Source: the human T2T-CHM13v2.0 reference genome, Homo sapiens
Strand: one strand, 5' to 3'
Length of the DNA stretch: 64,000 bases
Assembly: GCF_009914755.1 (NCBI RefSeq)
Contig: NC_060946.1
The notes below the pieces were generated by a model. It was not told the DNA's origin. It saw only the letters and a program-made list of their open reading frames with translations, and did no database searches. This document shows positions 44,101 through 50,100 of the stretch, piece after piece (position 1 is the first letter of the stretch; every line of letters starts with the position of its first letter). A program made the translations under genes and the position numbers.

Positions 44101-47100
44101 TAAAAAGGGGAAATTTGGCTGGGCGCAGTGGCTCACACCTGTAATCCCAGCACTTTGGGAGGCTGAGGCAGGTGGATCACCTGAGGTCAGGAGTTCGAGA
44201 CCAGCCTGACCAACATGGTAAAACCCCTTCTCTACTAAAAATACAAAAGTTAGCCATGCGTGGTGGCACGCACCTGTAATCTCAGCTACTTGGGAGGCTG
44301 AGGCAGGAGAGTCGCTTGAACCCAGGAGGCAGAGGGTGCAGTGAGCCAAGACTGTGCCATTGCACTCCAGCCTGGGCAACAAGAGCAAAACTCCATCTCA
44401 GAAAAAAAAAGGGGGGGTGGAATTTGGGCAGAGACAGATTATAGAGGGAAGATGATGATACACAACATCACGTGAAGGTTGGGACAGAGATGGAGATTAT
44501 GCTGCCACAGATCAGGGAGCACCTGGGGCCACCAGAAGCTGGAAGAGGCAAGGGGGACCCTTCCACTACCTGTTCCAGAGAGCACTACCGGTTCCAGAGA
44601 GCACGCCCCTGCCAACACCTCAACGGCTGACCCCTAGCCTACAGAAGCTCTGCTGTTCTAAGCCACCCAGCTCCTAGCATTTTGTTGTGGCAGTCCTAGG
44701 GGATGAATACAAACACCAACTAATGGCCCCAGGAATCCCAGATGTTCAAAATGCAGGTCCAGGGGAGATAGAGCCCTCTCCCCACCTTCCCAGGCCCCAC
44801 TCTATTCTCACTTTCCCTGGAAGAACTTCCTCTCCCTTTTGGACACCTCCGTGGCCTTACAGGCAGTGGTTCCTACATACGGGGGTGCCTGTATCTTGTG
44901 CACCCTTCTCTGATATGCTGTGAGTTTGCTACAACTGAGGGGTCAAGCTGGGACTAGATATGTCAGGATGGTGAATGTACTATCAAGTGGGGTCCAACCT
45001 ATGGCTAGTAGGTGGTGGGAGGCAGAGCCAATGATGCACCTGCACTTCCACTCTCCCCATCCCTGGGATCCTGGGATGAGGGAGACCCCTTAGGTCAGGC
45101 TGGGACATGGTTGAGTCAACAGTGATCCAGCAAATATAGAAACAGCAGGACCGATTTTAGGGATACATCTGGACCAGCACAGTGTGGCTTATAGGAAAGG
45201 CCACTGTCCCACAGCAGGAGCAAATGGTCACTCCTTGCAAACCCACCCTGGGTCTAGCCCAGAGGTGGGGGCAGGGAGGAGGGAAGAACGGGAGGATGGA
45301 CATTATTATTATTATTATTATTATTATTATTATTATTATTGAGACGGAGTCTCACCCTGTCGCCAGGCTGGGGTGCAGTGGCGTGATCTCTGCTCACTGC
45401 AACCTCTGCCTCCCGGGTTCAAGCGATTCTCCCACCTCAGCCTCCCAAGTAGCTGGGATTACAGGCGCCCGCCACCACGCCCAGCTAATTTTTTTTTTTT
45501 TGAGACAGAGTGTTTTTGAGTCTTGCTCTGTCGCCCAGGCTGGAGTGCAGTGGTGAGATCTCCGCTCACTGCAAGGTCCACCTCCTGGGCTCACGCCATT
45601 CTCCTGCCTCAGCCTCCCAAGTAGCTGGGACTACAAGCGCCCACCACCACAGCCGGATAATTTTTTTGTATTTTTAGTAGAGACAGGGTTTCACCGTGTT
45701 AGCCAGATGGTCTCTATCTCCTGACCTCGTGATCTGCACGCCTCGGCCTCCCAAAGTGCTGGGATTACAGGCGTGAGCCAACGCACCCAGCCATAGTTTT
45801 TGTATTTTTTAGTAGAGATGGGGTTTCACCATGTTGGCCAAGATGGTCTTGACCTCTTGACCTCGTGATCCGCCCACCTCGGCCTCCTGAAGTGCTGGGA
45901 TTACAGGCGTGAGCCACCGCGCCCAGCCTCGGATGGACATTATTGAACTGACGCAACTGGGTCATTGCCCAGCTCTGGAACCACATGAATCAGGACCAAG
46001 CCAAGTCAGGCTCCTGCTTCCTGGGGACTTTGGAACCTGGCCCACCACCCACCAAGGTCTCACCCCTCCTGCCCCATGGCCAACCTTATCTGCTCCACAC
46101 TGTCTTCCTTTGATGGGGGTTCTCCTGGCACTGGGCCTGGAGGCTGGTGTCCGCTTGGCCTTTCTGGCAGCCCAGCCCGGGCAGTCTTCAAAGACAGCAG
46201 CTGCAGCCTTCACCCTCTGGCCACGGGCATTGGGAGGGGTGGCGCAGGTGGCCCCCACCCGCAGGTTCAGCCCAGTAAGCCACCTGAAGAGAAAAGAGAG
46301 CTGGGGAGCTAGCTGTGCTGATTCTGCTCCAGTGGCCTGGAGCAGGTGGGCACTGGGTGTGGGGCAGGGTTGGTGCAGAAGGCAGCACAAGGCCACAGGC
46401 AGCATGCATTCATTCGCTCAACAAGCATTTGCCAGCTTTCCTGAGGAGGTCAAGGAGGCCACCAGGAATTTGGGAGCGGTGGAGCCTATAGGTGACAGCA
46501 GGCTCTGCTGAGAATCTTGGCGGCTCACCAATTATGTGACCTACAAGCCACTTCAAGCCTCTGATCCCTTCTTTGTAAAAAGGGGATAATAATAGTAATA
46601 ATAAACAGTTAGAGGGCTTACAACGTAGCAGACACTGTTCAAATCAACTTATCTATGCTAATTTCATTCTTACAACAACCATCATGAGGTTAGATACTAC
46701 ATCCCCCCTTTTTACAGATGGGCAGGAAAGGTTACGCGGCTTGCAGAGTTAGTTGGTAAAATACCAGAGCCAGGACTGGAGCCCAGGTCTGCAGGACTCC
46801 AGGCTTCTTGTGACTTTTTATTTTTTTTTGAGATGGAGTCTCACTCTGTCGCCCAGGCTGGAGTGAAGTGGCGCGATCTCAGCTCACAGCAACCTCTGCC
46901 TCCCAGGTTCAAGCAATTCTCCTGCCTCAGCCTCCCAAGTAGCTGGGATTACAGGCACCCACTACCACGCCCAGCTAATTTTTGTATTTTTAGTAGAGGC
47001 AGAGTTTCACCATGCTGGCCAGGCTACTCTCAAACTCCTGACCTCAGGTGATCAGCCTGCATTGGCCTCCCAAAGTGCTGGGATTATAGGCGCGAGCCAC

Positions 47101-50100
47101 CATCCCCGACCTCTTGTGACTTTCTCATGTAATTATGTAAAGTGGTCTCGCCTACCTATTAGGTCCCAGCCCGCTAGGCAGAGCAGATACCATGCCCACT
47201 TTATGGATGATGAAATCAAGGCTCAGAGAAGTCCACCCTCAACATCCCCAGGAAGGGTAACTAACCCTGGAAAGGGCTTATACATGCCTGGCTCTCACAG
47301 GACCCGCCCCTCCCCACAAGCTGCTCGGATGGGCATGGACATGGTGTGCCTGGGGAGATGACAGGGGCTTGACTGAGAGTGGCTGGGTGGTCTTTGGCTG
47401 GAGGTCTAGGTGGGGGTGCCCACCTGTGCAGCGGAAGCAGCTGGCAGTCACAGTGGAAGGGATTGCTGCTGAGGTCGATGAGCTCCAGCTGGCTGAGACT
47501 GGGCAGGGCAGGCAGGGCCCGAAGCTGGTTCTTCTGCAGGTGCAGGCTCTGGAGCCCGGGCCCCAGGCCTGAAAAGGCCCCAGGACAAATCTGCAAGGAG
47601 TTGCCAGGCCCCAATGTGAGCTCCTGGCAGAGCTGTCCCACCCCCAAGTCTGGAAGGGAGCCCCATCTTCCCTCAGCAGAAGAGAAGCTGGAGAGCCCAA
47701 GCTGGTCCAGCCAGGAAGTGCAGCGCTGGGTCAAAACCCAGGCTGGTCTGATGTCAAAACACTTGCTCCGTCCAAGTCACCCAGATGCCCAGTTCATGGT
47801 CCACCCCACCACCCAATAATGGCAAAACCTCTTGGGGGCTCTCAATATGTACAAACAGTAGATGACTGCATGGTCCCAAATTCCTCCCTCCTCTATGCTC
47901 CAGCAATACCGTCCTGTGCAGGCACCGTGTGTGGCCTGGGTTCTGCCCGGACTGTCACTCACACCGGTAGGGGCAGTCCTGGTTTATCTCAGGGTCCCCG
48001 TGCCCAGGCTGAGACCTGGCACCAAGGGGCTGGCAAATGCTTGTTGAGTGAATGCACGCTGCCTGTGGCCTTGTGCCGCCTCCTGCACCAACCCCGCCAG
48101 ATGCCCAGTGCCCACCTGCTCCAGGCCACTGCTGTTCAGGAAGAGGTGCTGCAGCGACCTGCCCACAGGCTGGAAGGCTCCGTCACGCAAGGCCCTGAGT
48201 GGGTTGCCCGAGAGCTGCAGCTCCAGGAGGGCAGGCAGCCCCTCCAAGGCCCCAGTGGGCACCTCTCGCAGCTGATTCCTGTCCAGGTGCAGCTTCTCCA
48301 GCTCCCGAGCTGGGCCCAGCGCCCCAAGGGACACTTCGGTGATGCGGTTTCCACTCAGGTAGACCCAGCGCAAGGCCCGTGTTCTCCCCAGGTCCCCAGG
48401 TGCCAGGCGGTCCACAGCGTTGTCCTGCAGGTGCAGGGAGAAGAGGCTGGGCAGGGCGCGCAGGGCAGCCCCTGGCACCTGCAGGAAACGGTTGCGTTCT
48501 AGGTACAGGTAGCCGAGGCGGGGAGCCCCTTCAAGGGCAGCAGCGCTGAGGCCTGCGAGCTGGTTGTCGGAGAGGTACAGGTAGATCAGGCGGCCCAGCC
48601 CGGCCAGGGCGCCCGCTTCCAGCTCCGCGATGCCGCAGTGCTGCAGGTGCAGCGACACCAGGTGGCCCAGGCCGGGGAAGGCCGCTCGGGGCACCGAGGG
48701 GAAGTGGTTCCGCCTCAGGTCCAGGAGCTGGGTGTCGCTGGGGAAGCCGCGGGGCACCGCCTGCAGGCCGCAGCCCTCGCAGCTGCTGTGCCGGGACTCG
48801 GGGACGCACACGCAGGCGCGAGGGCAAGGCGCGACTGCCCGCTCCTCCCCGGGGCCGCGCGGAGGGCCGCGCGGAGGGGCGCGGGGCCCGGCCACAGCCC
48901 GCTCTTCCAGCTCTTCCTCTTCCTGCGCCGCGTCCCCAGGGCAGCGCAGGTCCCAGGGCCGCAGGGCGTCCAGAGCCTCGCCCCGCAGGCGCCGCGGCCC
49001 CTGGCACGCGCCGTCCGAGCGCACGCGCGCCCGCGCCAGCCACTCGAGTAGGGGCCGCGCCTGGCAGCCGCACCACAGCGGATTCCCCTGCAGCCGCAGC
49101 CGGCGCAGCTGGCCCGGGCCCTGCAGCGGGGGCAGGGTGTCTAGCTGGTTCCCGCGGAGGTCGAGGGTGTGCAGGCGCGGACAGTGTGCGAAGGCCCTGG
49201 GACCCAGGGCCTGCAGGGCCCCGCCGTCCAGCAGCAGCTCCCGCAGGCCGGGCAGCGCCAGCCCGTCCTCCTCGCCCGCGTAGGTGAGCGGGTTGTGGCC
49301 CAGCTCCAGACGGGCCAGGCCGCGGGCCTGGGACAAGACAGGCCCGGGCAGAGCCTGGAGCTCGTTGTGGTGTAGGCTGAGCCGTCTCAGGGCGGGCAGG
49401 CCAGCCAGGGCCTCGGGGGCCAGCACGCTGAGCGCGTTGTGCGACAGCCGCAGCCAGCGGACGCGCAGTAGCCCCTGGAAGGCCATGGCGGGCAGGTAAA
49501 CCAGGGCGTTGTGGGCCAGGTTTAGCGTGGCCAGCGCACCCAGTGCCCCGAACGTCCCCGGCCGCAGCTCCTCCAGTGCGTTCCCCTCCAGCTCCAGCCG
49601 CCGCAACGAGCCCAGCCCGTCCAGCGCCTCCTGGGGCAGCTCACGCAGGTGGTTGGAGGCCAGGTTGAGCAGGAGCAGGCGGCCCAGGCCACGGAAGGCG
49701 CCCTCGGCCACCAGCTCCACCTCGCAGTGGCGCAGGTCCAGGTGTGTGAGGTGAGGCACGCCCTGGAAGGCGGCTGCGGGGATCACCTTCAGCAAATTGC
49801 CCTGCAGGTCCAGCCGCTGGGTCAGCTGGGGACAGCGAGGAGAAAGTGGGGCTGAGCCAGGCAGGGACCCCGCCTTTGCAAGTGCTGCTTCTTCCCCGGA
49901 ACACTCTTTTCTCCTGTCACCTTTCCCATATTTCTCTTCATCCGACCCCTGACACCTCCTCCAGGAAGCCTTCCTCTCCAGTGCCCTGGGCATCACCCAC
50001 TGTGGCATTTTTCACACTGTGCTGTCCCTGCCTCCTCGCTCTCTCTCCTCCACTAGCTGATGACTCTGCAGAGCAGAGACCACACCTCACCCTGCCACAG

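What the first reader, a model, noticed from the sequence alone, without database searches (positions are those of the whole stretch)
46330..48131. Non-Alu inverted duplication that could hide the CHADL exon 3 donor and loop out exon 4
Seen: 46330-46436 is the reverse complement of 48029-48131. The first 28 nt are identical, with 8 substitutions and one 4-nt indel overall (~89%). Arm B includes 16 coding nt and the exon 3 donor (CAG|GTGGGC), so this is a local inverted copy of a splice junction, not a dispersed repeat pair; only the ATTCA..CAACAAGCATTTG end looks L2-tail-like. Arm A ends ~45 nt upstream of the exon 5 acceptor. In CHADL pre-mRNA the arms could form a ~100-bp duplex around a 1.6-kb loop containing exon 4. 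The four isolated substitutions all become G-U wobbles on the CHADL strand (A-C mismatches on the other), although three are also explainable as CpG decay. Inference: an RNA-structure splicing switch. Skipping the 167-nt exon 4 gives VAYWAEP...CSCCL* with a stop 103 nt before the last junction (NMD-type). Donor masking would give intron retention (stop at 47984) or cryptic donor use. Exon 4 circularisation and ADAR editing are also possible.
Basis: partly seen in the sequence, partly recalled or inferred. Interest (0 to 1): 0.8.

Follow-up and report, generated by a model that had tools for sequence, protein, structure and literature searches.

The report
Inverted copy of CHADL splice junction
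A 105-base piece spanning the end of CHADL exon 3 and its splice donor was copied backwards into a nearby intron, so the gene's RNA could fold on itself and hide that splice site; whether it ever does so in cells is untested.

Summary
Window 46330-46436 is the reverse complement of 48029-48131: 95 of 103 aligned bases match, with 8 substitutions, one 4-nt indel and sharp ends. A search of the whole human assembly with arm A finds only these two places. Of 215 inverted pairs in the window (at least 60 nt, at most 5 kb apart), this is the only one not built from multi-copy sequence.

Arm B holds 16 coding bases, the exon 3 donor, about 60 nt of unique intron and the start of an old dispersed repeat. 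That repeat runs on past the arm in B but not in A. So B is the source and A is a local inverted copy in intron 4, 46 nt from exon 5.

In silico the arms form a 98-bp helix (-214.5 kcal/mol) that buries the donor and closes a 1592-nt loop holding exon 4.

Nothing shows an evolved switch. The G-U argument is not significant (4 of 6 transitions), the gene table lists no exon-4-skipped transcript, and no paper was found. I could not reach RNA data or cross-species data. Most likely this is a primate-age template-switch product with at most side effects on CHADL RNA processing.

The parts
48029..48131 (-). Arm B, the source copy: last 16 nt of CHADL exon 3 (48116-48131), the GT donor (48115-48114), ~60 nt of unique intron 3 and the first ~27 nt of an old dispersed repeat
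46330..46436 (+). Arm A, the inverted copy of arm B inside CHADL intron 4. It reads like the exon 3 junction on the + strand, so it is antisense to that junction in CHADL pre-mRNA. It ends 46 nt upstream of the exon 5 acceptor (46283)
48104..48131 (-). Perfect 28-bp stem with 46330-46357, covering positions -16 to +12 of the exon 3 donor. This stem alone is -66.7 kcal/mol, against -10.3 for the U1 5' end on the same donor
46358..46362 (+). Predicted 5x5 internal loop (partner 48099-48103): four clustered mismatches. Two of them (TG against CA) fit one ancestral CpG that decayed in both arms
46413..46416 (+). 4-nt bulge (indel) in arm A, inside the ATTC-repeat part of the dispersed-repeat tail
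48003..48054 (-). Stretch of intron 3 that matches a profile of 30 genomic copies of the dispersed repeat holding CATTCAYTCAACAARYATTT. It runs 26 nt beyond the end of arm B. The name L2 3' tail is recalled, not tested
46402..46433 (+). The same repeat tail inside arm A. The match stops at the arm's end and the real flank adds nothing to the score
46437..48028 (-). 1592-nt loop closed by the helix: the rest of intron 3, exon 4 (47424-47590, 167 nt) and most of intron 4, including a CHADL-sense Alu (about 46815-47101)
46284..46329 (-). 46-nt spacer between the helix end and the exon 5 acceptor. It holds the polypyrimidine tract and, presumably, the intron 4 branch point
   Evidence: sequence; branch-point placement is inference

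Best explanation
Arm A is a single-piece, local, inverted duplicate of the CHADL exon 3/intron 3 junction. It sits in intron 4, 1.6 kb downstream in the transcript.

Origin (inferred): the copy was most likely made by a replication or repair template switch onto the opposite strand, of the FoSTeS/MMBIR or synthesis-dependent templated-insertion type. This probably happened some tens of millions of years ago, in the primate lineage.

Shown: the two arms are the only copies in the genome. The copy's ends are sharp. It crosses exon, intron and repeat borders arbitrarily. B is the original.

Shown only in silico: both arms lie in the same pre-mRNA, and arm A is a 100-nt built-in antisense to the exon 3 donor. 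The predicted 98-bp helix buries the donor and closes a loop around exon 4.

Inferred consequence: a passenger structure with side effects rather than an evolved switch. If the helix forms before intron 3 is removed, it should slow or block use of the exon 3 donor. That would give intron 3 retention, with a stop at 47984-47986. It should also attract promiscuous A-to-I editing and allow low-level exon 4 back-splicing.
For: Uniqueness: the whole-assembly search with arm A gives 2 of 2 candidates, which are the two arms. 1 of 215 inverted pairs in the window is non-dispersed, and it is this one. 1 of 28 inverted matches in the CHADL span falls outside the five blocks I read as Alu.

Sharp ends: the alignment does not extend into the flanks. 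The flanks have no other homolog in the window beyond 10-15-nt chance words.

Direction B to A: the 16 exon bases encode ...SGLEQ, in frame inside a leucine-rich repeat of the 762-aa ORF. The repeat motif has 969 genome hits against 0 for the reversed control. Profile homology continues to 48003 in B but ends at 46433 in A. B's real flank scores 9.5 bits against 6.14 +/- 0.72 for shuffled flanks (0 of 300 reach it). A's real flank scores 6.3 bits, and 299 of 300 shuffles reach it.

Duplex: -214.5 kcal/mol against -69.2 +/- 5.6 for 200 shuffles. The 2202-nt MFE fold keeps 98 arm-arm pairs, including the donor, and forcing arm A unpaired costs 149 kcal/mol.

No sign of selection: 4 of 6 transitions are G-U-compatible on the CHADL strand, and the + strand duplex is -204.2.

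General knowledge read here: template switches can create inverted repeats flanked by dissimilar sequence (PMC5453318, passages). Complementary regions that loop out exons lower their inclusion, those over active splice sites are depleted, and they are enriched in editing sites (PMC8052449, passages).
Against: No outgroup sequence was available, so the derived state, the age and the mechanism of the copy are inferred.

The template-switch events documented in the paper I read are short-range (tens of bp). This copy is 103 nt long and lies 1.6 kb away.

A pairwise test of the flanks against 28 of the 30 repeat copies did not separate B from A (means 15.2 and 15.0; 0 of 200 and 7 of 200 shuffles reach them). 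The 'repeat continues in B only' point therefore rests on the profile test alone.

Arm A has lost all 4 inferred CpGs and arm B only 1 of 4. This asymmetry is unexplained, though not significant at these numbers.

No RNA data were available. The helix may never form in vivo, because of U1 binding, hnRNP packaging or intron 3 (525 nt) being spliced first. Alternatively it may matter more than I assume.
Confidence: 0.7

Rival explanations
1. Evolved RNA-structure splicing switch. The helix is kept by selection and is opened or closed to toggle between productive CHADL mRNA and NMD-type products (exon 4 skipping, intron 3 retention), or to make an exon 4 circle.
For: A very stable duplex includes the donor and encloses exon 4. 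Exon 4 skipping and intron 3 retention both give premature stops in NMD-type positions. 4 isolated substitutions are G-U on the CHADL strand. In catalogues of conserved complementary regions, looped-out exons have lower inclusion, and poison exons are looped out by more stable structures (PMC8052449; PMC10573301; passages).
Against: The G-U excess is 4 of 6 and not significant, and 3 of the 4 are plain CpG decay. 4 clustered mismatches break pairing. The + strand duplex is nearly as stable. No exon-4-less transcript is among the 2 in the supplied gene table. A buried donor cannot itself perform exon 3-to-5 splicing. CHADL is absent from the main text of three catalogue papers. Four CHADL literature searches turned up nothing on its splicing, circles or editing.
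Confidence: 0.12
2. Inert relic. The duplicate is real, but the helix does not form in cells to any measurable extent, so it has no effect on RNA.
For: Intron 3 is only 525 nt, and the donor is transcribed about 1.7 kb before arm A, so U1 binding and even splicing could come first (inference). The normal six-exon mRNA is the selected RefSeq transcript (gene table). RNA structures rarely connect adjacent introns (below 3%; PMC10691357, passage).
Against: The helix is worth about 149 kcal/mol in context, and its 70-bp distal part (-146.2) does not need the donor to nucleate. By recall, inverted Alu pairs of lower identity do pair and get edited in vivo, and many human introns are spliced only after several kb of further transcription.
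Confidence: 0.3
3. Two independent insertions of the same dispersed repeat family in opposite orientation.
For: The last ~27-32 nt of each arm match a motif with 969 genomic occurrences.
Against: Only 2 genome matches to the whole arm. About 75 of 103 nt are unique and include coding sequence and the splice donor. 92% identity is far above what two old copies of that family show in my 30-copy alignment (top-base fraction about 0.5 outside the motif).
Confidence: 0.02
4. Arm A acts as a distant editing-site complementary sequence. ADAR edits the exonic adenosines of the last two codons of exon 3 (GAG CAG), recoding E631G or Q632R, or changes the -2 base of the donor.
For: The exon's last 16 nt are in a perfect 28-bp stem. 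Exon 3 ends in phase 0 with ...CTG GAG CAG. Complementary regions are enriched in editing sites, most strongly below -30 kcal/mol (PMC8052449, passage).
Against: No editing data could be consulted. The CHADL + 'RNA editing' search gave 14 papers, and none of the 10 listed is about CHADL editing by title; I opened one and it was irrelevant. Edited pre-mRNA would still need the helix to be unwound before splicing.
Confidence: 0.06

Closest known systems
Inverted Alu pairs and other intronic complementary sequences flanking circularised or skipped exons (e.g. inverted MIR elements for ciRS-7, PMC7371899, abstract start seen)
   Same: Two inverted, about 90% complementary segments sit in the introns on either side of an exon, 1.6 kb apart, and could form a long dsRNA.
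   Different: Not a dispersed repeat: 2 copies in the genome. One arm is the gene's own exon-donor junction, so the helix contains an active splice site. No back-splice junction is known to me or was found.
Long-range RNA structures that loop out exons or obstruct splice sites (PCCRs of Kalmykova et al. 2021, PMC8052449; PHF20L1 and CASK cases, PMC10573301; duplex-forming inverted repeats repressing 5' splice sites, Nasim et al. 2002, seen only as a citation in PMC1326234)
   Same: Geometry and expected effects: an exon inside the loop, and a donor inside the stem.
   Different: Those structures are typically far weaker (the two validated cases named are near -20 kcal/mol), conserved among vertebrates and backed by compensatory mutation tests. 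This one is about 100 bp, -214 kcal/mol, apparently young, untested, and covers an active constitutive donor. That class is reported as depleted.
Template-switch mutations that create inverted repeats and hairpins (Loytynoja & Goldman 2017, PMC5453318, passages; de novo hairpins and miRNAs, PMC8794818 and PMC10710096, listing only)
   Same: A stretch of nearby sequence is copied in reverse complement, leaving an inverted repeat flanked by dissimilar sequence.
   Different: Scale: 103 nt copied to a site 1.6 kb away, against events of tens of bp. The mechanism here is inferred from the end product only.
Exon/intron duplexes that direct site-selective ADAR editing (GRIA2-type editing complementary sequences; recalled, not looked up here)
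   Same: Exonic adenosines next to a donor are paired with an intronic complement.
   Different: The complement lies in the next intron but one, and no editing is known.

Membership tests
Dispersed-repeat inverted pair (IRAlu-like) | Both arms belong to one multi-copy family | tested here: not met
   The whole-genome search finds only the two arms. Only the terminal ~27-32 nt match a 969-copy motif. This is the 1 of 215 inverted pairs in the window that is non-dispersed.
Local inverted (templated) duplication | Exactly two copies, in cis, in opposite orientation, with sharp ends and non-homologous flanks | tested here: met
Local inverted (templated) duplication | One copy is identifiable as the source, because it is embedded in features that continue beyond the copy | tested here: met
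   The exon reading frame runs into arm B. Repeat homology continues 26 nt past arm B but stops at the end of arm A. A pairwise test did not discriminate.
Local inverted (templated) duplication | Copy absent from outgroup species; microhomology at the switch points | not testable with these tools
   No non-human vertebrate sequence is held. The ancestral empty site is unknown.
Splicing-regulatory long-range RNA structure | Stable complementarity within one pre-mRNA, placed around an exon or a splice site | tested here: met
   -214.5 kcal/mol, against -69.2 +/- 5.6 for shuffles. 98 pairs are kept in the 2.2-kb MFE fold. In silico only.
Splicing-regulatory long-range RNA structure | Evolutionary support: conservation or compensatory changes | tested here: inconclusive
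   Only the two human arms could be compared. 4 of 6 transitions keep pairing on the CHADL strand, and 4 clustered mismatches break it.
Splicing-regulatory long-range RNA structure | An alternative isoform that fits the structure, and a splicing change when the structure is disrupted or restored | not testable with these tools
   The supplied gene table lists 2 transcripts, neither without exon 4. No RNA-seq or minigene data. Literature searches were empty.
circRNA-promoting intronic complementary sequences | A back-splice junction of the enclosed exon is observed | not testable with these tools
   CHADL + circRNA search: 28 papers, 15 listed. The one I opened names CHADL only as a ceRNA target.
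ADAR editing complementary sequence | A-to-I editing observed in the paired exon or intron | not testable with these tools
   No editing database is on hand. Search searches found nothing relevant.

The most novel reading that the evidence does not exclude
A primate-specific 'self-antisense' module. By copying its own exon 3 donor junction backwards into intron 4, CHADL acquired a 100-nt built-in splice-blocking antisense. This antisense sets how much productive CHADL mRNA is made, through donor sequestration leading to intron 3 retention or NMD, tunable by ADAR or helicases. It may also recode Q632R or E631G, or yield an exon 4 circle. That would make human CHADL dosage differ from mouse, in a gene whose recessive loss is one of the strongest known hip osteoarthritis risks.
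Probability: 0.1. Interest if true: 0.7.

Novelty: new member of a known kind. Interest (0 to 1): 0.4.

Why it matters
CHADL loss of function matters. According to a 2026 mouse-model preprint (PMC13251957, passages), the frameshift rs532464664 acts recessively, leads to nonsense-mediated decay and carries one of the largest known effects on hip osteoarthritis. A structure that lowers productive splicing in cis would therefore be a plausible modifier of dosage. It would also be a difference between humans and the mouse models.

More generally, this is a clean natural example of a non-repeat, about 100-bp intramolecular antisense against an active constitutive donor. In the catalogue paper I read, complementary regions over active splice sites are depleted. 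This makes it a convenient test case for whether such helices form before co-transcriptional splicing. If it proves inert, it is simply a dated footprint of template switching in the germline.

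Tried and rejected

2. A genome search with the intron 3 stretch 47880-48060 found only itself, so the tool is too insensitive for old repeats. 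A 26-nt arm pattern with up to 3 mismatches gave only the two arms plus 2 unrelated places.

3. The first repeat profile was contaminated by Alu sequence in the flanks of the fetched loci, and its hits were unusable. I rebuilt it after masking Alu.

4. nhmmer on bare 100-nt flanks returned nothing at all, for real or shuffled sequences, which is a technical failure. I replaced it with a pairwise test, which did not separate the B flank from the A flank, and a shuffled-flank profile test, which did.

5. Rfam found nothing at the arms, only sub-threshold SRP/Alu-type and Alu-borne miRNA-like hits at 46828-47110.

6. I looked for other templated pieces next to arm A, as a sign of a complex rearrangement, and found none.

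7. CHADL literature: circRNA (28 papers, 15 listed, 1 opened), exon skipping (7 papers, 2 opened), RNA editing (14 papers, 10 listed, 1 opened), intron retention (7 papers, none newly opened). Nothing concerned CHADL splicing, circles or editing; for most papers I judged only from titles and abstract starts.

Tillgren et al. 2015 on CHADL is not held.

9. I rejected the 28-nt perfect block and the G-U pattern as evidence of selection.

Full report
**What is there.** Reading both strands shows that the + strand at 46330-46436 repeats the minus-strand text of 48131-48029.
- The repeat finder reports the pair as two abutting inverted matches (86 nt and 31 nt, both 90%).
- A local alignment with 150 nt of extra sequence on each side returns exactly 46330-46412 + 46417-46436 against 48131-48049 + 48048-48029.
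- In that alignment 95 of 103 aligned columns are identical, with 8 substitutions and one 4-nt insertion in arm A. The first 28 columns are identical, and the match does not extend into the flanks.
- Within the window blastn gives E = 1e-28.

**It is unique, not a dispersed repeat.**
- The window lies in a full human assembly that can be searched. Arm A finds 2 candidates, both scored, and they are the two arms. The tool warns that counts of repeats are lower bounds.
- Within the CHADL span (38131-51871) there are 28 inverted blastn matches. The other 27 all fall in five ~250-600-nt blocks (39511-40199, 42992-43286, 44111-44409, 45323-45928/46815-47101 and 51071-51303).
- I read those 27 as Alu-Alu pairs. 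The basis is the Alu-type direct repeats and the SRP/Alu hits in the 46828-47110 block; no repeat library was run.
- The A/B pair is the only one touching intron 3, and apart from one 36-nt fragment (94.4%) it has the highest identity.
- In the whole 64-kb window, 215 inverted pairs lie at most 5 kb apart and are at least 60 nt long. Only one of them is made of sequence with no further copy in the window, and it is this pair.

**Composition of the arms and direction of copying.**
- With the annotated exons, the CHADL ORF reads through as 762 codons. Exon 3 ends in phase 0 with ...CTG GAG CAG | GTGGGC.
- Arm B therefore carries the last 16 coding bases (...SGLEQ, part of the leucine-rich repeat [14 protein letters not shown]), the donor, and 87 nt of intron 3.
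- The far end of both arms contains CATTCAYTCAACAARYATTT. That motif occurs 969 times in the genome (492 forward, 477 reverse), against 0 for the reversed control.
No repeat library was available to confirm the name.
- I built a profile from 30 genomic copies after masking Alu. It aligns to intron 3 from 48054 to 48003, which is 26 nt past the end of arm B. In arm A the match stops at 46433, at the arm's end.
- Replacing the 100 nt beyond each arm with shuffles gives the following. B's real flank scores 9.5 bits against 6.14 +/- 0.72, and 0 of 300 shuffles reach it. A's real flank scores 6.3 bits, and 299 of 300 shuffles reach it.
- A cruder pairwise test against 28 of the 30 copies did not separate the two flanks, so this point rests on the profile test.
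- Together with the coding frame, the evidence says that B is the original. A is a copy cut out arbitrarily across exon, unique intron and repeat.
- The flanks of arm A have no other homolog in the window, so this looks like a single-piece event.

**Origin and age (inferred).**
- An inverted copy placed 1.6 kb away, with sharp ends and no flanking homology, is what a transient switch of a polymerase to the opposite strand would leave.
- The four-point template-switch model explicitly includes the creation of inverted repeats flanked by dissimilar sequence. The events documented in that paper are much shorter (PMC5453318, passages).
- The arms differ at 8 of 103 sites: 6 transitions and 2 transversions. 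Five of the changes are CpG-type. Three are CG in B against CA in A, and one TG/CA pair fits a CpG that decayed in both arms.
- Using recalled primate divergences, I read this as tens of millions of years, with very wide error. No other species could be consulted.

**RNA structure.**
- On the CHADL strand the arms give a duplex of -214.5 kcal/mol, against -69.2 +/- 5.6 for 200 shuffles. The duplex has a 28-bp perfect stem, a 5x5 internal loop, a 4-nt bulge and four G-U pairs.
- On the + strand the duplex is -204.2 kcal/mol.
- Folding 2202 nt of pre-mRNA keeps 98 arm-arm pairs, including the donor bases at 48116/48115. Forbidding arm A from pairing costs 149 kcal/mol.
- The donor stem alone is -66.7 kcal/mol and the distal 70-bp part is -146.2. 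U1's 5' end on this donor is -10.3.
- The helix ends 46 nt from the exon 5 acceptor, next to where the intron 4 branch point should lie (inference).
- The loop is 1592 nt. It holds exon 4 and a CHADL-sense Alu, and that Alu can pair with intron 5 Alus across exon 5.

- Exon 4 is 167 nt. Skipping it gives ...[11 protein letters not shown]...CSCCL*, with the stop ending 103 nt before the last junction.
- Retaining intron 3 gives a stop at 47984-47986.
- Both products would be NMD-type by the usual 50-55-nt rule (established knowledge).

**Is it a switch?** Nothing I could compute says so.
- Of 6 transitions, 4 are G-U-compatible on the CHADL strand and 2 on the other strand (P of at least 4 of 6 = 0.34).
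- Three of the four G-U pairs are ordinary CpG decay.
- Four clustered mismatches break pairing.
- A 28-nt block with no difference is not unusual at this divergence.
- A donor buried in the helix cannot itself carry out exon 3-to-5 splicing. 'Donor masking' and 'looping out exon 4' are therefore partly alternative outcomes, not joint ones.
- The gene table supplied with the finding lists two CHADL transcripts, and neither lacks exon 4.
- General evidence from the catalogue of conserved complementary regions: structures that loop out exons are depleted and lower inclusion. Those over active splice sites are depleted. Editing sites are enriched, especially below -30 kcal/mol (PMC8052449, passages).
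- Fewer than 3% of contact-supported structures join adjacent introns (PMC10691357, passage).
- Duplex-forming inverted repeats can repress a 5' splice site (Nasim et al. 2002, seen only as cited and summarised in PMC1326234).
- So the helix, if it forms, is of a kind that usually harms the enclosed or covered sites. That fits a tolerated passenger better than a designed switch.

**Literature.**
- CHADL does not occur in the main text of the three catalogue papers.
- Searches for CHADL with circRNA, exon skipping, RNA editing and intron retention gave 28, 7, 14 and 7 papers.
- The four papers I opened mention CHADL only as a ceRNA target, a qPCR gene, a fusion partner or a classifier gene. The rest I judged from titles and abstract starts only.
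- I therefore found no description of this repeat. I cannot claim that none exists.

**Verdict.**
- The finding is a real, unique, local inverted duplication of a splice-donor junction. It was read correctly by the first stage as to anatomy and over-read as to function.
- It is a new instance of known kinds: a template-switch product, intronic complementary sequences around an exon, and a long-range structure over a splice site.
- It has one unusual trait. One arm is the gene's own active donor, inside a helix far stronger than the validated regulatory examples.
- It deserves a cheap look in existing RNA-seq, editing and primate alignment data, given CHADL's link to hip osteoarthritis through recessive loss of function (PMC13251957, passages).

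Noticed in passing
window 47416-47426 and 48108-48118 (minus strand): The donors of exon 3 and exon 4 share the same 11 nt, CAG|GTGGGCAC (exon 4: GCACAG|GTGGGCACC). In the pre-mRNA, arm A is therefore also complementary to the exon 4 donor over 11 nt, 1.08 kb upstream of it.
   Followed up: partly
window 46815-47101 against 42998-43283 and 44128-44409: Exon 5 is flanked by inverted Alu pairs: an intron 4 Alu against two intron 5 Alus, 83-84% identical over about 285 nt. These pairings would cross the A/B helix in a pseudoknot-like topology and compete with it.
   Followed up: partly
window 46337-46362 (minus strand, inside arm A): Read in CHADL sense, arm A ends ...CCCACCTGCTCCAG|GCCACTG. This is a pyrimidine-rich stretch followed by AG, 53 nt upstream of the exon 5 acceptor. 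Using it as a cryptic acceptor would shift the frame. It is not annotated and was not scored.
   Followed up: no
window 48429-48610: Three direct copies with 72-nt spacing inside exon 3 (63-71% identical). This is the leucine-rich-repeat period (24 codons) visible at the DNA level.
   Followed up: no
arms 46330-46436 and 48029-48131: CpG asymmetry: of 4 inferred ancestral CpGs, arm A has lost all 4 and arm B only 1. This is not significant at these numbers. It would fit different germline methylation or constraint at the exon 3 end.
   Followed up: no
window 46926-46977 (minus strand): A sub-threshold Rfam match to mir-1268 (59.8 bits, gathering score 83) lies inside the intron 4 Alu. It is an Alu-borne hairpin, probably of no significance.
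   Followed up: no
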